Below, piece by piece: positions 25,603 to 31,465 of a DNA stretch of 33,411 bases; position 1 is the stretch's first letter, and each line of letters begins with the position of its first letter. This stretch comes from an uncultured Candidatus Saccharibacteria bacterium (GTDB lineage Bacteria > Patescibacteriota > Minisyncoccia > Minisyncoccales > RBG-13-42-11). Under the pieces are notes generated by a model, which was not told the DNA's origin, made no database searches, and was given only the letters and a program-made list of their open reading frames with translations. The position numbers and the translations under genes were made by a program. The stretch is taken from the NCBI GenBank assembly GCA_964630295.1, contig CAZVTU010000001.1, positions 1 through 33,411 of the forward strand, written 5' to 3'.

Positions 25603-26498
25603 ATATGCAATTTAATTTCCTTAAATACAAGAAAATTTATTTTATTTTTTCTGGAATTTTAGTTTTGGGGAGTTTGGTTTCCCTGCTTACTTTTGGTCTA
25701 AAGCCAGGTATTGATTTTACTGGAGGGAGTATTTTGGAAGTTGAATATAAAACTGTGAGACCTTCAAATCAAGAAATAAAAGATAATTTGAACGAATTTA
25801 GTTTAGGCGACATTTATGTTCAGCCTACTGGAGAAAAGGGAGTAATTTTGCGAATGAAAGAAATCTCTGAGGAAACTCATCAAAAAATTATTCAAAAACT
25901 TAAAGAAAATAATGAATTAGAGGAACTCCGCTTTGAATCGATAGGGCCAGTAATCGGTCGGGAATTAAAAGAGAAAACAAAGGTTGTTGTTATCTTTTCT
26001 CTTTTAGCAATTGTTTCGTATATAGCTTTTGCTTTTAGGAAATTAACTTTCCCAGCAAAATCGTGGCAATATGGGTTAGCTTCTTTGGTTGCTCTTTTTC
26101 ACGACATATTAATTCCCCTAGGGATATTCTCAATTTTAGGGAAATTCTATGGAGTCCAAATCCAAATTCCGGTAATTGTTGCTTTATTAACTGTTTTAGG
26201 ATATTCAATCAACAACACGGTAGTTGTTTTTGATCGAGTTAGAGAAAATTTATTTAGAAAAGTGGGTGGTAATTTCGAAGAGACAGTAAACAAATCCCTT
26301 AATCAAACTTTAACTCGTTCTCTTAATACCTCTTTAACTACCCTTTTTGTCTTAATAGCCATTTTCTTTTTAGGTGGGGAAACTTTAAGATATTTTTCTT
26401 TAGCTCTTATTCTAGGAATTATTGCAGGGACCTATTCCTCTTTTTTCTTAGTCAGCCCTTTGCTTGTTACTTGGTTAAAGTGGAGAGGGAAGATTTGA
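25587..26498 (+). CDS. secF: Protein-export membrane protein SecF
   Basis: GIDFTGGS, FHDILIPLGIFS and GYSINNTVVVFDRVREN motifs. The ATG at 25587 is preceded by GGAG. An alternative start at 25605 (MQFNFLKYKK) lies just after the secD stop. Confidence 0.9.
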   Translation: MFMAVNMQFNFLKYKKIYFIFSGILVLGSLVSLLTFGLKPGIDFTGGSILEVEYKTVRPSNQEIKDNLNEFSLGDIYVQPTGEKGVILRMKEISEETHQKIIQKLKENNELEELRFESIGPVIGRELKEKTKVVVIFSLLAIVSYIAFAFRKLTFPAKSWQYGLASLVALFHDILIPLGIFSILGKFYGVQIQIPVIVALLTVLGYSINNTVVVFDRVRENLFRKVGGNFEETVNKSLNQTLTRSLNTSLTTLFVLIAIFFLGGETLRYFSLALILGIIAGTYSSFFLVSPLLVTWLKWRGKI

Positions 26499-26523
26499 CA
26501 AATTGGTAAAATTTTGTCAAAAT
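26495..26523 (+). promoter_or_regulatory. Candidate promoter (TTGACA-17-CAAAAT) embedded in a 9-bp inverted repeat
   Basis: The -35 box contains the secF TGA stop. The inverted repeat TTTGACAAA (26494-26502) / TTTGTCAAA (26513-26521) spans the promoter. The -10 box ends 8 nt before the ATG at 26532. Confidence 0.4.
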
Positions 26524-26531
26524 AAAATAAT

Positions 26532-27497
26532 ATGGATTTAAATTATTCCCAAATTTGTTCTAATCTTCTTAAGAATCTATCAGAAAAGCAGAAAGAAGTA
26601 ATTATTCGTCGGTTCGGTTTAAATCAATCAGTTAGCGAAAATCGGAGAGAAACTTTAGAATCAATTGGCAGAATTTTTGGTATTACTAGGGAGAGAGTTC
26701 GTCAGATTGAAAAAGATTGTTTCTTAAAATTAAAGCCAGAGACTAAAAAATATCAAAAGATTTTCCGATATTTTAATGAATATTTTAAGAAAAACAACGG
26801 CCTCAAAAGAGAAGATTTAGCTTTAGAAGACTTGGGGGGTGAACGTTGGAAAAACCAAGTCTATTTTTTATTAACTCTGGGTGAAAATTTTAAAAGATTC
26901 AGTGAAAATGAAGATTTCTATTCCTTTTGGTCAACTAATCCGAATGCTCCCTCCCTCCTTAAAAAAATCATTACTACAATCTATACTCAACTCAAAAAAA
27001 TTGGAAAGCCAATTGTATTAAAAGATCCTAAAAAAATAAATTATTTAGAAATATCAAAGAAAATTCAGAAAAATTCTGAAGGCCTTTGGGGACTAAAAGA
27101 ATGGCCGGAGATTAATCCCCGGGGAATTAAAGACAAAGCTTATTTAGTTTTTCAAAAAGAAAAAAGGCCACTTCATTTTACTGAGGTTGCTCATTTAATT
27201 GGTTCAGCCTTACCCCAAACCGTTCATAATGAATTAATTAAGGATTCTCGATTTGTCTTGGTTGGACGGGGTCTTTATGCTTTGTCTGATTGGGGATATG
27301 AGAAAGGAGTGGTAAGAGATATAATCATTAAAATTTTAAAAGAAACCAAGAAGCCTCTAAGTAAAGAAGAGATTTTAGAAAAGGTTTTAAAACAAAGATT
27401 TGTAAAAAAGAACACTGTTTTACTAAATTTAAGCAATAAAAAATATTTTTCCAAAACTCCTGAAGGTTTATATAACATCAAAACTAAAACAGCTTAA
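26532..27497 (+). CDS. DNA-binding protein with an N-terminal sigma-70 region-4-like HTH and a C-terminal HARE-HTH-like domain
   Basis: LSEKQKEVIIRRFGL...ETLESIGRIFGITRERVRQIEKDCFLKL is a region 4 pattern. I saw no region 2. In the C-terminal part, PLHFTEVAHLI...FVLVGRGLYALSDWGY resembles the RNAP delta N-terminal / HARE-HTH pattern. Confidence 0.7.
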   Translation: MDLNYSQICSNLLKNLSEKQKEVIIRRFGLNQSVSENRRETLESIGRIFGITRERVRQIEKDCFLKLKPETKKYQKIFRYFNEYFKKNNGLKREDLALEDLGGERWKNQVYFLLTLGENFKRFSENEDFYSFWSTNPNAPSLLKKIITTIYTQLKKIGKPIVLKDPKKINYLEISKKIQKNSEGLWGLKEWPEINPRGIKDKAYLVFQKEKRPLHFTEVAHLIGSALPQTVHNELIKDSRFVLVGRGLYALSDWGYEKGVVRDIIIKILKETKKPLSKEEILEKVLKQRFVKKNTVLLNLSNKKYFSKTPEGLYNIKTKTA

Positions 27498-27501
27498 ATA
27501 A

Positions 27502-28800
27502 ATGACAGCTGAAGAGGTTAATCTATTTTTATATTATTTTTGGCAGATTTTAAAAAACTGGTGGTGGGTGATAATTCCTTTTATCCTCTGGAAACCATTC
27601 TTGTTTTTATATCTTTGGTGGCGGAATGATGAATGGATTAAGAAACAGCGAATGGTTTTACTTGAAATTAAACTGCCCAAAGAAACCTTAAAACCGATTA
27701 GGGCTATGGAACAAGTAATGGCCTCTCTTCACGCAGCAGTTTATCATCCCCCTGACTGGTGGGAAAAATGGATTGATGGTCAAGTTCAATTATCATTATC
27801 TTTTGAGATAGCTTCGATTGGTGGGGAAACCCACTTTTTTGTTAGGAGTGGGGCCGCCTATCGTGATGCCATAGAATCCTCAATTTATTCTCAATATCCT
27901 GAAGCTGAAATTACTGAAGTTGATGATTATACAAAGTATGTTCCACAGAATATTCCTAATAAAGATTGGGATCTTTGGGCTTCAGATTATAAATTATTAA
28001 AAGATGACCATTTCCCAATTAAAACTTATCCGAAATTCGAAACTGAGACAGAAAGAGAGGAAGAAAAAAGAGTAGATCCGGTGGCCGCTCTTTTAGAAGC
28101 TATGGCTAAAGTAAAACCAGGAGAACAACTTTGGATTCAGATTATTGCTGAACCAGTATCTGAGGGTCCAGCCGCAGCCTGGATTAGAAAAGGAGAGGAA
28201 ATCAGAGATAGATTAGCCCGAAGACCAGGAGTTCCAAAACAAAAGCCAATAATTCAAGAAGCAGCTAAAGTTTTAATTACTGGTAAGCCAACTGAAACAG
28301 AAAAAGTTGAAGAAAAAGAAATCATACCTCCAGAAATGAAGCTTACTCCCGGCGAAAGAGAAATAATTACTAGATTAGAGGAAAAAATCTCTAAACCAAT
28401 TTTCAATACTAACATTAGGTTTATTTATTTGGGAAAAAGAAATATTTGGTTTAAACCTAATTTTAGATTAGCTTTTTCTTATTTCAATGGTTACACCACC
28501 GCTAATTTGAATGCTTTATTTCCTTTGGGAAAAACTTTAACCAAGATTCATAAATCTTGGTTTTTACCTTTAAATCTTCTTCGTCCAAGAAGACACTATT
28601 TAAGATGCCGAAAAATATTCAGGAATTATATTAGAAGATTTCCTCCTTTTTTTCCTCGAAAAGGAGGAACTTTTATGTTAAATACTGAGGAATTAGCTTC
28701 TCTTTTTCACTTTCCCAGCGAAGCTGCTGCTCCCGCTCCTGGGGTTACTCGAGTGGAGGCTAAAAAGAAAGGTATGCCTCCAACAATTCCTACCGAATAA
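27502..28800 (+). CDS. Hypothetical membrane-anchored protein, partner of the downstream ATPase
   Basis: N-terminal hydrophobic segment WWVIIPFILWKPFLFLYLWW. Acidic central region and basic C-terminal region. The stop is 5 nt before the ATPase start. No motif recognised. Confidence 0.6.
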   Translation: MTAEEVNLFLYYFWQILKNWWWVIIPFILWKPFLFLYLWWRNDEWIKKQRMVLLEIKLPKETLKPIRAMEQVMASLHAAVYHPPDWWEKWIDGQVQLSLSFEIASIGGETHFFVRSGAAYRDAIESSIYSQYPEAEITEVDDYTKYVPQNIPNKDWDLWASDYKLLKDDHFPIKTYPKFETETEREEEKRVDPVAALLEAMAKVKPGEQLWIQIIAEPVSEGPAAAWIRKGEEIRDRLARRPGVPKQKPIIQEAAKVLITGKPTETEKVEEKEIIPPEMKLTPGEREIITRLEEKISKPIFNTNIRFIYLGKRNIWFKPNFRLAFSYFNGYTTANLNALFPLGKTLTKIHKSWFLPLNLLRPRRHYLRCRKIFRNYIRRFPPFFPRKGGTFMLNTEELASLFHFPSEAAAPAPGVTRVEAKKKGMPPTIPTE

Positions 28801-28805
28801 AAATT

Positions 28806-30431
28806 ATGGCAGAAGATATAAATTTTTTCGGTGAAACAACTTTCCGAAATCAGAGGAAAAAATTTGGTATAAAACTCGACGATCGCCGCCGGCATATGTA
28901 TTTGGTTGGAAAGACTGGAATGGGGAAAACAGTAATGATGAAGAATATGGCCATTCAAGATATTCAACGAGGAAAAGGAGTCGGTTTTGTTGACCCCCAT
29001 GGTGAAGCAGCTGAAGATCTATTAGATTTTGTCCCTTCCGATCGAATTAATGATGTGGTTTACTTTAATCCAGCTGATTTGGAATACCCTATTGCCTTTA
29101 ATATTATGGAAAAGGTGGATGTAGAGCATCGGCATTTGGTGGCTTCTGGATTAATGGGAGTATTTAAAAAAATCTGGCCTGATGTTTGGTCAGCCCGGAT
29201 GGAATATATTTTAAATAATTGTATTTTAGCCCTTTTGGAATATCCAGGTTCTACGCTTTTGGGGGTGAATCGAATGTTAGCTGATCCTGATTATCGGAAA
29301 AAAGTGGTAGATAAAATTACCGATCCCGTAGTAAAGTCTTTTTGGGTTCAAGAATTTGCTAGATATACTCAAAGATATGAAGTGGAGGCGACAGCCGCTA
29401 TTCAAAATAAAGTTGGCCAGTTTATCTCCAACCCTTTAATTAGAAATATTATTGGTCAAGTTAAATCGAAAATTGATATGAGAGAAATTATGGACGGAGA
29501 AAAGATTTTAATTGCTAATATTTCTAAAGGAAAAATTGGTGAAGATAATTCTCGGCTCCTGGGAGCGCTTTTAATAACTAAATTACAGTTAGCCGCCATG
29601 TCTCGGGTAGATATTCCAGAAGAAGAAAGAAAAGATTTCTTTTTATACGTTGATGAATTCCAGAATTTTGCCACTGAATCTTTTGTCAATATTTTATCTG
29701 AGGCTAGGAAATATAGGTTAGCCTTAATTTTAGGTCATCAATATATTGCTCAAATGGAAGAAGTGGTAAGGGATGCGGTTTTCGGTAACATGGGAACGAT
29801 TATTTCTTTTCGAGTAGGAGCTGAAGACGCTGAATTTTTAGAAAAAGAATTTGCTCCCGATTTTGCTGCTTCAGATTTAGTTAATTTAAAAAAATATAAT
29901 ATTTATTTAAAATTAATGATTGATGGATTAGCTGGCCGTCCTTTTTCTGCTGAGACTCTTCCTCCTTTTCCAAAACCTAAAGAATCAAATAAAGAAAAAA
30001 TTATTAAAGTATCTCGTGAGAGATATGGTACTCCTAGAGAAATCGTTGAGGAAAAAATCAATAAATGGACTGGGAATTTAAAATTACCCGAAACCCCAGA
30101 GACAACAACGCCAGTTTTGTATGATGCCCGATGTTCGCGTTGTGGAAAGTGGACCAAAGTAGTTTTTCCTCCTGAGCCCTCCCGGCCAGTTTATTGTAAA
30201 TCTTGTTTAAAGAAAATAAAGAAGGAAAAGGAAGTCTCAAGTGAAGAAAGTCAAAGTATTTCTTTGGAGGAAGCTCTAAAAAAAGAACCAATTTCTTTCT
30301 CCGGAAAAGTAGTAACTGAAAAGAAAAAAGAGAAAAAGAAGGAAAAGAGAAAAGAAGTTAATGTGGAAGAACTTAAAAAAACTCTGGAGGAATCTTTAAG
30401 AGATATAAAAGGTAAAAGTAAGGAAAAATGA
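28806..30431 (+). CDS. Type IV coupling protein-like (TraD/TrwB/VirD4 superfamily) P-loop ATPase with a C-terminal CxxC-x17-CxxC zinc ribbon and a Lys/Glu-rich tail
   Basis: Walker A GKTGMGKT (28908-28931), VDPHGEAAEDLL, Walker B FFLYVDEFQNF and LILGHQYIAQM. Zinc ribbon CSRC-x17-CKSC at 30132-30206. The tail is encoded by a 40-nt all-purine run (30318-30357). Confidence 0.75.
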   Translation: MAEDINFFGETTFRNQRKKFGIKLDDRRRHMYLVGKTGMGKTVMMKNMAIQDIQRGKGVGFVDPHGEAAEDLLDFVPSDRINDVVYFNPADLEYPIAFNIMEKVDVEHRHLVASGLMGVFKKIWPDVWSARMEYILNNCILALLEYPGSTLLGVNRMLADPDYRKKVVDKITDPVVKSFWVQEFARYTQRYEVEATAAIQNKVGQFISNPLIRNIIGQVKSKIDMREIMDGEKILIANISKGKIGEDNSRLLGALLITKLQLAAMSRVDIPEEERKDFFLYVDEFQNFATESFVNILSEARKYRLALILGHQYIAQMEEVVRDAVFGNMGTIISFRVGAEDAEFLEKEFAPDFAASDLVNLKKYNIYLKLMIDGLAGRPFSAETLPPFPKPKESNKEKIIKVSRERYGTPREIVEEKINKWTGNLKLPETPETTTPVLYDARCSRCGKWTKVVFPPEPSRPVYCKSCLKKIKKEKEVSSEESQSISLEEALKKEPISFSGKVVTEKKKEKKKEKRKEVNVEELKKTLEESLRDIKGKSKEK

Positions 30432-31465
30432 AAACTTTAAGAGAGTTTGATCTTAAAGGGAAAAGAACATTAGTTAGGTGCGATTTTAATGTCCCCCTTG
30501 GAGATCAAGGGAATATTTTAGATGATTTCCGAATTAAACAAAGTATTCCTACTATCGAGTACCTTATAAAAGAGGAAACAAAAGTGATTCTAATGAGTCA
30601 TTTAGATAGGCCGGGCGGAAAGGTAATTGAGAAATTAAGATTAACCCCTATTCAAGATAAATTAATGGAGTATTTAGATATATCTATCGTTAAAGCACCA
30701 GATTGTTTGGGTAAAGAAATCGAGAAATGGAGCCATCAAATGAAAAAAGGAGAAATTTTACTTTTAGAAAATTTGAGATTTCACAAAGAGGAAGAAGAAA
30801 ATGATGAAAGCTTTGCTAGAGAATTAGCGAAATTAGGAGATATTTATATTAATGATGCCTTTGGGGTTTCTCATAGGAATCATGCTTCGATCGTAGGGGT
30901 ACCTAAGTTTTTACCATCAGGAGCTGGGTTTTTGTTAGAAAAGGAAATTAAAGTTTTAACTGGGTTAATAGAAAAACCGAAAAAGCCCTTAGTAGCAATT
31001 ATTGGTGGGAAAAAAGTTGAAACAAAAACTAAATTAATTGATAAGATTTCTGAAATTGCTGATTTCGTTCTTATTGGAGGTTTAATTAAAAAAGAAATAA
31101 AAGAGAAAAACATTCAGTTAAGAAATCCTTCAAAGATCATTGAACCCTCAGACAGTATAGAGGGAAAAGATATCGGTCCTCAAACCATTAAAAATTTTAA
31201 AGAAAAAATAAATTTAGCTAAAACAATTTTCTGGTCAGGTCCTCTTGGTAAAATTGAAGAAGAAAAATTTCAAATAGGTTCCAAAACAATTGCCCAAACA
31301 ATCATTAATAGTGGCGCTTTTTCAGTAATCGGCGGGGGAGAAACAGTTGAGTTTATTAATCAATCTGGTTTAATTGAGAAATTTAATCACGTTTCCACCG
31401 GCGGTGGGGCGATGATAGCTTTTATATCTGGTGAAAGAATGCCTGGCATCGAGGTTTTAAAATAA
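30428..31465 (+). CDS. pgk: Phosphoglycerate kinase (short form, 345 aa)
   Basis: VRCDFNVPL, MSHLDRPGG, LENLRFHKEEE, NDAFGVSHRNHAS, IIGGKKV and STGGGA motifs. ATGA overlap with the upstream ATPase gene. Confidence 0.92.
   Translation: MKTLREFDLKGKRTLVRCDFNVPLGDQGNILDDFRIKQSIPTIEYLIKEETKVILMSHLDRPGGKVIEKLRLTPIQDKLMEYLDISIVKAPDCLGKEIEKWSHQMKKGEILLLENLRFHKEEEENDESFARELAKLGDIYINDAFGVSHRNHASIVGVPKFLPSGAGFLLEKEIKVLTGLIEKPKKPLVAIIGGKKVETKTKLIDKISEIADFVLIGGLIKKEIKEKNIQLRNPSKIIEPSDSIEGKDIGPQTIKNFKEKINLAKTIFWSGPLGKIEEEKFQIGSKTIAQTIINSGAFSVIGGGETVEFINQSGLIEKFNHVSTGGGAMIAFISGERMPGIEVLK

What the first reader, a model, noticed from the sequence alone, without database searches (positions are those of the whole stretch)
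27502..30431. Orphan coupling-protein-like ATPase with a zinc ribbon, plus a membrane partner, embedded among housekeeping genes
The 541-aa protein has T4CP-type Walker A and B boxes and an HQYIAQ block. The window contains no relaxase, VirB4, pilin or other T4SS genes. Instead the gene is preceded at a 5-nt gap by a 432-aa membrane-anchored protein of unknown family, and it overlaps pgk (ATGA). It also carries a C-terminal CxxC-x17-CxxC zinc ribbon (30132-30206) and a Lys/Glu tail. Canonical T4CPs carry their own N-terminal TM anchor, so the pair may be a split coupling protein that works as a stand-alone two-component membrane translocation motor. Given the putative nucleic-acid-binding ribbon, the substrate could be DNA or RNA.
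Basis: partly seen in the sequence, partly recalled or inferred. Interest (0 to 1): 0.6.

Follow-up and report, generated by a model that had tools for sequence, protein, structure and literature searches.

The report
Split coupling-type ATPase of Patescibacteria
These two genes are the separated halves of one conjugation-type "coupling" motor protein that almost every ultra-small Patescibacteria genome carries. It is not an orphan, because the same genome encodes a type IV secretion system elsewhere, but its cargo is still unknown.

Summary
Gene spacing, the Walker A and B boxes, the HQYIAQ block, the CxxC-x17-CxxC ribbon at 30132-30206 and the Lys/Glu tail are all exactly as described.

**What it is**
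- The 541-aa protein is a TrwB/VirD4-type ATPase. It passes Pfam PF10412 above cut-off, and TrwB is its best match in the PDB by sequence and by fold.
- The 432-aa partner belongs to Pfam DUF8128. Its confident AlphaFold model significantly resembles only the N-terminal domain of VirB4 (TrwK).
- In other Patescibacteria classes the two parts form a single 850-1175-aa chain.
- A tree of the motor domain places all 39 split forms in one clade, which points to a single gene fission. That clade also gained the zinc ribbon.

**Why "orphan" and "stand-alone" fail**
- This genome encodes pilins, a VirB6-like protein, PrgI/VirB3 and VirB4 next to dnaA on contigs C2/C21.
- The ATPase is present in 300 of 301 sampled Patescibacteria genomes and VirB4 in 290 of 301.
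- A DUF8128-type coupling protein sits inside a real type IV secretion cluster on a Streptomycetaceae plasmid.

**Status**
- The most likely role is the coupling ATPase of the phylum's relaxase-less secretion system.
- A secretion-independent role is not excluded: the fused Saccharimonadia orthologue is non-essential by published Tn-seq.
- The presence of coupling-protein homologues in Patescibacteria is already published. The split, the VirB4-like N-domain and the second paralogue are not.

The parts
26495..26523 (+). Promoter-like site (TTGACA-17-CAAAAT with a TG extension) 9 nt upstream of the HTH gene. It is a candidate start of an HTH / DUF8128 / ATPase / pgk transcript.
   Evidence: Consensus scan. 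The number of promoter-like sites in the region is not above the shuffled expectation, so this is weak evidence. No intergenic terminator follows, and the gene gaps are 4 nt, 5 nt and a 4-nt overlap.
26532..27497 (+). 321-aa sigma-70 region-4 plus HARE-HTH protein. It is the conserved upstream neighbour of the module. Its role is unknown.
   Evidence: PF04545 at 2.3e-14 and PF05066 at 1.7e-9. It lies directly upstream of DUF8128 in 74 of 80 split loci and in 4 of 6 fused loci. In S. epibionticum the gene upstream of the fused orthologue (SEML1_0294, annotated 'RpoS', 349 aa) is called essential (PMC10633639 Table S1); orthology is inferred from position and annotation only.
27502..28800 (+). 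DUF8128 (PF26449) protein, 432 aa. It is the N-terminal half of the split coupling-type ATPase.
   Evidence: Precomputed PF26449 annotation. AlphaFold2 model with pLDDT 91.5 and pTM 0.88. All 13 significant Foldseek hits in the PDB are TrwK/VirB4. It corresponds to residues about 10-430 of single-chain homologues.
27508..27645 (+). N-terminal aromatic-rich helix (aa 3-48), the putative membrane anchor.
   Evidence: AlphaFold2 helix H3-48. Highest Kyte-Doolittle mean 1.54 at aa 20-38. Membrane insertion is inferred, not shown.
27649..28716 (+). Alpha/beta domain (aa 50-405) with a VirB4 N-terminal-domain-like fold. It ends in the conserved motif EELASLFHFP (aa 396-405, nt 28687-28716).
   Evidence: Foldseek E 2e-5 to 3e-4, prob 1.0, TMq 0.34-0.40 against 7o42, 8rtb, 8rtd, 7o43 and 7o41. 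Invariant residues are G93, E102, D142, E397 and H403. The same motif recurs in the Embleya plasmid coupling protein. There is no sequence-profile similarity to Patescibacteria VirB4.
28806..30431 (+). TrwB/VirD4-type motor ATPase, 541 aa, with no TM segment. It is the C-terminal half of the split protein.
   Evidence: PF10412 and PF12696 above cut-off. Best PDB sequence hit is TrwB at 8e-7. The motor half of a 63%-identical fused homologue superposes on TrwB with TMt 0.62-0.67. Found in 300 of 301 phylum genomes.
28908..28931 (+). Walker A (GKTGMGKT, aa 35-42).
   Evidence: Invariant G-K-T-G-x-G-K in the fused alignment.
29640..29657 (+). Walker B (FLYVDE, aa 279-284), followed by the conserved FQNFAT.
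   Evidence: V-D-E-F-Q-N-F-A-T is invariant in 61 fused homologues.
29736..29753 (+). HQYIAQ block (aa 311-316).
   Evidence: It aligns with TrwB 'GLQSTSQ' in the phmmer alignment. The Q residues are invariant.
30132..30206 (+). CxxC-x17-CxxC treble-clef zinc ribbon (aa 443-467).
   Evidence: PF23477 at 8.8e-11 and TIGR04272 at 6.1e-11. Present in 120 of 120 split-type ATPases and 0 of 120 fused homologues.
30207..30428 (+). Lys/Glu-rich, probably disordered C-terminal tail.
   Evidence: 20 K and 16 E in 70 aa. Tails of fused homologues are also charged and low-complexity, and P0393 carries an S1 domain there.
30428..31465 (+). pgk, overlapping the ATPase stop (ATGA). It is a neighbour, not part of the machine.
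   Evidence: pgk follows the ATPase only in 27 of 80 loci, the closest relatives.

Best explanation
**Shown.**
- The two genes encode the two halves of one protein, the DUF8128-type coupling-protein ATPase. This is a core gene of Patescibacteria.
- In most classes it is one chain of 850-1175 aa. In the clade that holds this genome, a single gene fission cut it in the inter-domain linker, and a zinc ribbon was added to the motor's tail.
- Half 1 (432 aa) is an aromatic N-terminal helix followed by a domain whose predicted fold resembles the VirB4 N-terminal domain.
- Half 2 (541 aa) is a TrwB/VirD4-like nucleotide-binding domain plus all-alpha domain, with intact Walker motifs.

**Inferred.**
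- Half 1 tethers a hexamer of half 2 to the membrane. Because its fold is that of the VirB4 domain which contacts VirB3 and VirB8 in the R388 machine, it may also dock the motor on the inner-membrane platform of the type IV secretion system. That system is encoded elsewhere in this genome, beside dnaA.
- The pair is the only coupling-type ATPase in this assembly.
- The motor would use ATP to hand a substrate, recruited by its charged tail and zinc ribbon, to or from that secretion system.
- No relaxase was found, so the substrate is probably not a classical conjugative relaxase-DNA complex. Protein, or host-derived or exported nucleic acid, both remain possible.
For: **Identity of the motor.**
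- PF10412 at 45.8 bits and PF12696 above cut-off.
- TrwB is the best PDB sequence hit.
- By fold, the motor half of the fused homologue matches TrwB with TMt 0.62-0.67. Cag-beta, DotL and HerA score lower at 0.50-0.54.

**Split of one protein.**
- Six loci from other classes and 120 database proteins carry PF26449 plus PF10412 in one frame.
- The junction falls in the linker ...KKGxPPxxLPxE | ...FxxTxFR.
- All 39 split ATPases form one clade (SH-aLRT 99) nested among fused forms, which requires only one change.

**Co-conservation.**
- The two genes are adjacent in 69 of 80 loci.
- In the 9 broken cases I searched, 8 keep a 55-65% identical ATPase on another contig.
- The ATPase is found in 300 of 301 genomes. 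The single exception has a DUF8128 fragment at a contig end.

**N-domain fold.** All 13 significant Foldseek hits are TrwK/VirB4. The full-length fused model aligns over about 900-950 columns to TrwK with E 1.8e-13.

**Link to the secretion system.**
- This genome has a pilin-fusion protein, a VirB6-like protein, PrgI, VirB4 and several pilins on C2/C21/C3.
- VirB4 is found in 290 of 301 genomes.
- The four high-quality genomes that seemed to lack VirB4 still have pilins, and three have PrgI at contig edges.
- An Embleya plasmid carries a DUF8128-type coupling protein directly between a VirB4-like ATPase and a replication-relaxation gene, with PrgI nearby.

**Precedent and prior reports.**
- pIP501 TraI (membrane) plus TraJ (soluble) is a proposed two-protein coupling protein (PMC4981023).
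- VirD4-type homologues are reported in 2,918 of 3,035 Patescibacteria genomes (PMC12102498).
Against: **Against a role with the secretion system.**
- The gene pair is about as far from the secretion cluster as it can be, on a different contig. Published counts find only 148 of 5,713 Patescibacteria coupling-protein homologues near virB4.
- In S. epibionticum the 921-aa fused orthologue SEML1_0293 is called non-essential by Tn-seq, while the secretion genes are essential. Its normalised reads do fall from 5817 to 2940 to 1372.
- Because both systems are near-universal, co-variation cannot discriminate between the two roles.

**Limits of the N-domain evidence.**
- The VirB4-like fold rests on Foldseek against a predicted model, with modest TM-scores of 0.34-0.40.
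- It has no sequence-profile support (hhalign probability 0.1%).

**Not demonstrated.** Membrane insertion, hexamer formation, interaction of the two halves and ATPase activity are all untested.
Confidence: 0.65

Rival explanations
1. The pair is a secretion-independent, stand-alone, membrane-tethered nucleic-acid translocase: a coupling protein taken over for another job such as DNA or RNA uptake, export or segregation. The zinc ribbon and basic tail would bind the nucleic acid.
For: - The pair is encoded among housekeeping genes, in conserved synteny with an HTH protein and not with secretion genes.
- The published survey raises the possibility of exaptation.
- The fused orthologue is non-essential in S. 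epibionticum while the secretion genes are essential.
- C-terminal tails carry nucleic-acid-type modules: a zinc ribbon here and an S1 domain in P0393.
- pIP501 TraJ binds ssDNA.
- There is a weak partial match to the archaeal DNA-translocating ATPase CedD, at 30.8 bits against a cut-off of 600.
Against: - No genome was found that keeps the module without the secretion system. The apparent VirB4-less genomes have pilins and PrgI at contig edges.
- The N-domain resembles the part of VirB4 that docks on the secretion machine's inner-membrane complex.
- The same architecture sits inside a real secretion cluster on an actinobacterial plasmid.
- The zinc ribbon is absent from all 120 fused homologues examined.
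- The genome already has FtsK (C11).
Confidence: 0.25
2. The pair is functionally a second, divergent VirB4-like assembly or pilus-biogenesis ATPase, not a substrate-coupling protein.
For: - The N-domain has a VirB4-like fold, and the whole fused model aligns end to end with TrwK.
- Patescibacteria secretion systems carry many pilin genes, with 6 matches in this genome.
Against: - The motor half matches TrwB much better than VirB4-type models. PF10412 scores 45.8 bits against 14.1 bits for P-loop_TraG, and TMt to TrwB is 0.62-0.67, including the all-alpha insertion.
- There is no profile similarity to Patescibacteria VirB4.
- A canonical VirB4 is already present.
Confidence: 0.07
3. The pair is a remnant of an integrated conjugative element or plasmid, with no host function.
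For: The closest non-Patescibacteria relatives are plasmid-borne (Sulfitobacter 39.7%, Priestia, Streptomycetaceae, haloarchaea).
Against: - It is present in 300 of 301 genomes of the phylum.
- The motor is 55-80% identical across classes.
- Synteny is conserved.
- GC content is 35.7% against 32.4% for the window, with no composition break.
- No integrase, relaxase or repeats were seen nearby.
Confidence: 0.02

Closest known systems
Type IV coupling proteins: TrwB (R388), VirD4, TraD, Cag-beta, DotL
   Same: It shares the P-loop nucleotide-binding domain with an inserted all-alpha domain. It passes the Pfam PF10412 and PF12696 thresholds. TrwB is its best sequence and fold match in the PDB. 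Its variable C-terminal tail sits where other coupling proteins bind adaptors or substrates.
   Different: The motor chain has no TM helices. The N-terminal part is not a simple two-helix anchor but a roughly 350-aa VirB4-N-domain-like module, here on a separate polypeptide. The gene is chromosomal, vertically inherited, far from virB4, and has no relaxase partner.
pIP501 TraI/TraJ 'two-protein' coupling protein (Enterococcus Inc18 plasmid)
   Same: A soluble VirD4-like ATPase (TraJ) is encoded immediately downstream of a membrane protein (TraI) that is proposed to recruit it to the membrane (PMC4981023). The gene order and the logic are the same.
   Different: Whether TraI belongs to DUF8128 was not tested. 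The pIP501 pair lies inside a conjugation operon with a relaxase.
VirB4 / TrwK (R388) N-terminal domain
   Same: It is the only significant structural match for the DUF8128 protein (13 hits, E 2e-5 to 3e-4). The overall arrangement of N-domain followed by motor is also shared.
   Different: Sequence-profile similarity is absent and TM-scores are modest. The motor attached to it is of VirD4 type, not VirB4 type.
DUF8128-type single-chain coupling proteins of monoderm plasmids, for example Embleya sp. NBC_00896 WP_331738717.1 (812 aa)
   Same: It matches the fused Patescibacteria profile over positions 18-775 (E 3e-107), including the EELAxLxHxP motif. It is encoded within PrgI / XF1762 / VirB4-like ATPase / coupling protein / replication-relaxation / NlpC-P60.
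   Different: It is a single chain, plasmid-borne, beside VirB4 and a relaxase-like gene, and has no zinc ribbon. Motor identity is about 30%.
Ca. Southlakia epibionticum SEML1_0293 (921 aa) and the Patescibacteria coupling-protein homologues surveyed in PMC12102498
   Same: It is the same family: PF10412 lies at residues 402-719 behind a roughly 400-aa N-terminal region, and a sigma-like gene lies upstream. These homologues are reported as widespread and mostly far from virB4.
   Different: It is fused, not split. The papers do not describe the DUF8128 domain, its VirB4-like fold, the fission or the two paralogues (no paper mentions DUF8128).

Membership tests
Type IV coupling protein (VirD4/TrwB/TraD) | P-loop nucleotide-binding domain that passes the curated family models | tested here: met
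   PF10412 scores 45.8 bits (cut-off 20.5) and PF12696 scores 24.9 (cut-off 22). The NCBIfam TraD/SXT_TraD equivalog models match only partially and far below cut-off, so it is a superfamily member, not one of those subfamilies.
Type IV coupling protein (VirD4/TrwB/TraD) | TrwB-like fold, including the all-alpha domain inserted in the nucleotide-binding domain | tested here: met
   The fused homologue model (63% identical motor) aligns to nearly all of TrwB-deltaN70 with TMt 0.62-0.67 and rmsd 5-6 A. A helical block spans residues 533-657 of the model. The test was on a homologue, not on the window protein itself.
Type IV coupling protein (VirD4/TrwB/TraD) | N-terminal transmembrane anchor in the same polypeptide | tested here: not met
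   The 541-aa chain has no hydrophobic segment (highest Kyte-Doolittle mean 1.17). A putative anchor is supplied by the separate DUF8128 protein, which is fused in other lineages.
Type IV coupling protein (VirD4/TrwB/TraD) | Genetic association with a type IV secretion system and a relaxase | tested here: inconclusive
   Secretion genes are present in the genome but on other contigs. No replication-relaxation homologue was found, and other relaxase families were not searched. Relaxases are rare in the phylum.
Type IV coupling protein (VirD4/TrwB/TraD) | Hexameric ATPase that binds DNA or substrate and is needed for transfer | not testable with these tools
   This needs biochemistry or genetics.
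DUF8128 (PF26449) | Match to the family model | tested here: met
   PF26449.1 is precomputed for the window protein P0001 and nearly all of its homologues. The local Pfam copy lacks the model.
VirB4 (N-terminal domain) | Structural similarity to the VirB4 N-terminal domain | tested here: met
   The Foldseek top 13 hits are all TrwK, with E 2e-5 to 3e-4, prob 1.0 and TMq 0.34-0.40.
VirB4 (N-terminal domain) | Sequence or profile homology to VirB4 (PF03135, or Patescibacteria VirB4) | tested here: not met
   There is no PF03135 hit. hhalign of the DUF8128 alignment against 21 Patescibacteria VirB4 sequences gives probability 0.1%.
CxxC-x17-CxxC / zf_Tbcl_2 zinc ribbon | Match above the curated cut-off | tested here: met
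   TIGR04272 scores 41.9 (cut-off 36) and PF23477 scores 41.8 (cut-off 27) at aa 438-471.

The most novel reading that the evidence does not exclude
DUF8128-type motors may be a third branch of the VirB4/VirD4 ATPase family. They occur as two ancient paralogues in Patescibacteria, with relatives on actinobacterial and archaeal plasmids. This branch would keep a VirB4-style docking domain on a VirD4-style motor, which would show how coupling proteins arose from VirB4 and how they plug into monoderm secretion machines. In Patescibacteria this branch would be the engine that moves host-derived or exported nucleic acid (RNA or DNA) through the relaxase-less secretion system that supports the epibiotic lifestyle.
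Probability: 0.15. Interest if true: 0.8.

Novelty: new variant of a known kind. Interest (0 to 1): 0.45.

Why it matters
- Patescibacteria make up a large share of bacterial diversity and live attached to hosts. Their type IV secretion system is essential for epibiotic growth in the one species tested (PMC10633639), yet what it transports and how it is energised are unknown.
- This module is the phylum's near-universal coupling-type ATPase, and in this genome it is the only one. It is therefore the obvious handle on the cargo question.
- A VirB4-like docking domain on a VirD4-like motor also bears on two long-standing questions: how coupling proteins engage the secretion channel, and how the two ATPase families diverged.
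- The natural split provides two separately expressible halves for interaction studies.

Tried and rejected
1. **PF03135 as a VirB4 detector.** It found nothing in 26 related genomes. It is insensitive to the Patescibacteria VirB4, which I then found through a weak hit, tblastn and PF19044.
2. **My first Walker A regex.** It missed VirB4, whose Walker A reads AKSGSGKS.
3. **Genomes that keep the module but lack the secretion system.** Four high-quality genomes had no VirB4 hit. They do have pilins, and three have PrgI at contig edges, so these are assembly gaps, not real absence.
4. **Sequence-profile link between DUF8128 and VirB4.** None was found.
5. **DUF8128 on plasmids by tblastn.** No hit. 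Only the fused profile detects it, in the Embleya coupling protein.
6. **The upstream HTH protein as a relative of the 'replication-relaxation' protein.** That protein flanks the plasmid coupling protein. There was no similarity, and no homologue in this genome.
7. **A perfect AAGGAGG plus ATG inside a 12-bp hairpin at 28640-28676.** This could have meant internal translation of the conserved C-terminal peptide. The Met and the Shine-Dalgarno sequence are not conserved in relatives (19 of 48 have any such motif), so I rejected it as incidental.
9. **Literature on DUF8128.** None exists in the searched library.


Full report
**1. The observation**

The window is contig C1 of a 542-kb, 55-contig, 92%-complete, low-GC genome. 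Its best protein matches are Nealsonbacteria and Paceibacteria MAGs.

The two ORFs, their 5-nt gap and the ATGA overlap with pgk are as described. So are the motifs in the ATPase:
- Walker A (aa 35-42) and Walker B (aa 279-284).
- HQYIAQ (aa 311-316).
- CxxC-x17-CxxC at nt 30132-30206.
- A Lys/Glu tail.

The ATPase passes the Pfam thresholds for TrwB_AAD_bind, TraG-D_C and the zf_Tbcl_2 zinc finger, and the NCBIfam threshold for the CxxC-x17-CxxC domain. Its best PDB sequence hit is TrwB.

The partner has no hit in the local Pfam or in the PDB by sequence. It is precomputed as PF26449, which earlier notes of this scan call DUF8128.

**2. The pair is one protein cut in two**

The evidence that the two proteins are halves of one:
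- A phylum-wide search with the ATPase hit 300 of 301 Patescibacteria genomes, and 253 of 254 high-quality ones.
- In many other classes the open frame around the match is 870-1175 aa. I fetched six such loci. In each, one frame holds a DUF8128-homologous region (about aa 10-430) followed directly by the motor (about aa 380-850).
- A database search with one of them returned 120 proteins carrying PF26449 plus PF10412. They come from Berkelbacteria, Gracilibacteria, CPR2 and Howlettbacteria, among others.
- The break point in the split form lies in the linker after the conserved EELAxLFHFP motif.

The evidence on linkage and on when the split happened:
- In 80 named genome loci with a split-type DUF8128 gene, the ATPase follows in a separate frame in 69.
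- Of 9 loci where it does not follow, 8 genomes keep a 55-65% identical ATPase on another contig.
- A maximum-likelihood tree of the motor domain (93 sequences) puts all 39 split ATPases in one clade (SH-aLRT 99). That clade is nested among fused forms, so one fission event suffices.
- The zinc ribbon is found in 120 of 120 split ATPases and in 0 of 120 fused homologues. It is therefore a later, lineage-specific addition.

**3. What the partner is**

The AlphaFold2 model of the window's 432-aa protein is confident (pLDDT 91.5, pTM 0.88). It shows a long N-terminal helix (aa 3-48) followed by an alpha/beta domain.

- Against the PDB, the 13 significant Foldseek hits (E 2e-5 to 3e-4) are all TrwK/VirB4 of plasmid R388. 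The next hits are insignificant.
- A model of a fused homologue (pLDDT 84) aligns end to end with TrwK (E 1.8e-13, about 900-950 columns, low TM).
- The motor half of that model superposes best on TrwB (TMt 0.62-0.67). Cag-beta, DotL and HerA score lower.
- Profile-profile comparison of DUF8128 with 21 Patescibacteria VirB4 sequences gives no signal.

The VirB4 relationship is therefore at fold level only. The architecture is a VirB4-like N-domain on a VirD4-like motor.

**4. It is not an orphan**

VirB4 in these organisms escapes PF03135. A weak hit in a relative turned out to be a 594-aa protein matching P-loop_TraG, AAA_10 and DUF87. tblastn with it found a 78% identical gene at C2:24734-26512 of this genome.

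That region and the adjoining contig C21 encode:
- a 739-aa protein ending in a T4SS_pilin domain;
- a 961-aa polytopic protein with a weak TrbL/VirB6 match;
- PrgI/VirB3;
- a 212-aa protein;
- VirB4 (595 aa);
- a 121-aa pilin;
- dnaA.

Further pilin genes lie on C3 and C2. This is the Patescibacteria secretion system described in PMC12102498, which finds it near dnaA in Paceibacteria.

VirB4 is present in 290 of 301 sampled genomes. The four high-quality genomes without a VirB4 hit all have pilins, and three have PrgI at contig edges, so the absence reflects assembly gaps. The single genome without the ATPase has a DUF8128 fragment at a contig end.

Both systems are thus effectively universal. 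Co-variation cannot separate a role coupled to the secretion system from an independent one.

**5. Relatives outside the phylum**

By tblastn against plasmids, the motor's nearest relatives are on Sulfitobacter (39.7%), Priestia, Streptomycetaceae (121 Streptomyces records), haloarchaeal and Sulfolobus plasmids.

On an Embleya linear plasmid the 812-aa homologue lies within PrgI / XF1762 / VirB4-like ATPase / coupling protein / replication-relaxation protein / NlpC-P60. It matches the fused Patescibacteria profile over positions 18-775 (E 3e-107), including the EELAxLxHxP motif.

DUF8128-type coupling proteins are therefore genuine components of monoderm secretion clusters. This fits the published origin of the Patescibacteria system from the monoderm (MPF-FATA) class of type IV secretion systems.

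A split coupling protein also has a precedent: TraI (membrane) plus TraJ (soluble) of pIP501 (PMC4981023).

**6. A second paralogue, and the genetics**

Most Patescibacteria genomes give two ATPase matches. The second, which I call paralogue B, is 38-46% identical and sits in a 780-943-aa frame. It also carries a DUF8128-like N-domain and forms its own clade (SH-aLRT 100). It is absent from this assembly, so the split pair is the only coupling-type ATPase here.

The Tn-seq table of Wang et al. 2023 for S. epibionticum gives:
- SEML1_0293 (921 aa, PF10412 at 402-719) is called non-essential, but its normalised reads fall from 5817 to 2940 to 1372.
- The sigma-like gene immediately upstream, SEML1_0294, is essential.
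- SEML1_0142 (1019 aa, 'TraM recognition') is essential.

Equating these three genes with paralogue A, the HTH neighbour and paralogue B is my inference from length, domain positions and synteny. Their sequences were not compared.

**7. Neighbours**

- The sigma-70 region-4 / HARE-HTH gene lies directly upstream in 74 of 80 split loci and in 4 of 6 fused loci. It is the most conserved neighbour.
- pgk follows only in the 27 closest relatives.
- A promoter-like site precedes the HTH gene, and no intergenic terminator follows.

**8. Mechanism**

Shown:
- homology to coupling proteins;
- the fission;
- phylum-wide conservation;
- the presence of a secretion system in the genome;
- fold-level similarity of the N-domain to the VirB4 N-domain.

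Inferred:
- The DUF8128 protein anchors a hexamer of the motor at the membrane and docks it on the PrgI/VirB4/VirB6-like platform.
- The charged tail and zinc ribbon recruit cargo or an adaptor.
- ATP hydrolysis drives hand-over of the substrate.

I found no relaxase, and relaxases are rare in the phylum. The cargo is therefore unlikely to be a classical relaxase-DNA complex.

A 2026 preprint reports a Patescibacterium that takes up host RNA and shows secretion-pilus-like tubes at the host interface. That makes nucleic-acid import an attractive possibility, but it is untested here.

I put the identity claim at about 0.9, the secretion-coupling role at about 0.5, and a secretion-independent role at about 0.25.

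**9. Novelty**

Already published: coupling-protein homologues in Patescibacteria, and their position away from virB4.

Not in the literature I could search:
- the DUF8128 domain's VirB4-like fold;
- the single fission, with the gain of a zinc ribbon;
- the two DUF8128-bearing paralogues;
- the conserved HTH neighbour.

Earlier follow-ups within this scan reached similar conclusions on sister genomes. I treated them as leads and re-tested each one here.

Noticed in passing
Own genome contigs C2:17628-26521 (L004 3628-12522) and C21 (L005 8720-9824); outside the window: A Patescibacteria-type type IV secretion cluster lies beside dnaA. It holds a 739-aa protein with a C-terminal T4SS_pilin domain, a 961-aa VirB6/TrbL-like polytopic protein with a Cys-rich N-terminus and a long coiled-coil tail, PrgI/VirB3, a 212-aa unknown protein, VirB4 (595 aa, Walker A AKSGSGKS) and a 121-aa pilin. 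The C2 end and the C21 end overlap within virB4. Three more pilin genes lie at C3:11471-12643.
   Followed up: partly
window 26532-27497: The sigma-70 region-4 plus HARE-HTH protein is the most conserved neighbour of the module across Patescibacteria classes (74 of 80 and 4 of 6 loci). Its presumed orthologue in S. epibionticum (SEML1_0294) is essential by Tn-seq, while the adjacent motor is not. Whether it works with the motor or is simply a housekeeping RNA-polymerase factor is open.
   Followed up: partly
Own genome C25 (L002 1480-1665, minus strand): A stand-alone 61-aa basic protein carries the same CxxC-x17-CxxC ribbon. Its core, CSECGKEITELPFQPAPDRPIYCRDC, is very like the ATPase's CSRCGKWTKVVFPPEPSRPVYCKSC. 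This suggests a shared ligand for the finger.
   Followed up: no
L124-L135 and L100 (other Patescibacteria genomes): A second, ancient paralogue of the DUF8128-plus-motor protein (780-943 aa, always fused) exists in most Patescibacteria but is missing from this assembly and from some genomes of its order. The likely S. epibionticum member (SEML1_0142) is essential.
   Followed up: partly
L092, L093 and L101 (G332:C26 and G326:C8): In genomes where the split ATPase has moved away from its DUF8128 partner, it sits in tandem with an extra motor-only paralogue (about 46% identical). That paralogue forms its own long branch in the tree.
   Followed up: no
P0393 (fused homologue, 1052 aa): It carries an S1 RNA-binding domain (PF00575) and PF23459 in the C-terminal tail, in the place where the split clade has the zinc ribbon.
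   Followed up: no
L042 (2.6-kb contig of an 'uncultured Saccharibacteria' MAG): Here DUF8128 is followed directly by pgk with no ATPase between them. The genome (G325) shows only a 45%-identical paralogue. This is either a real loss of the motor half or an incomplete assembly.
   Followed up: partly
window 28640-28669: A 12-bp hairpin inside the DUF8128 gene pairs TTCCTCC with GGAGGAA (a perfect Shine-Dalgarno sequence) 7 nt before an in-frame ATG (Met391). It is not conserved in relatives, so it is probably incidental.
   Followed up: yes
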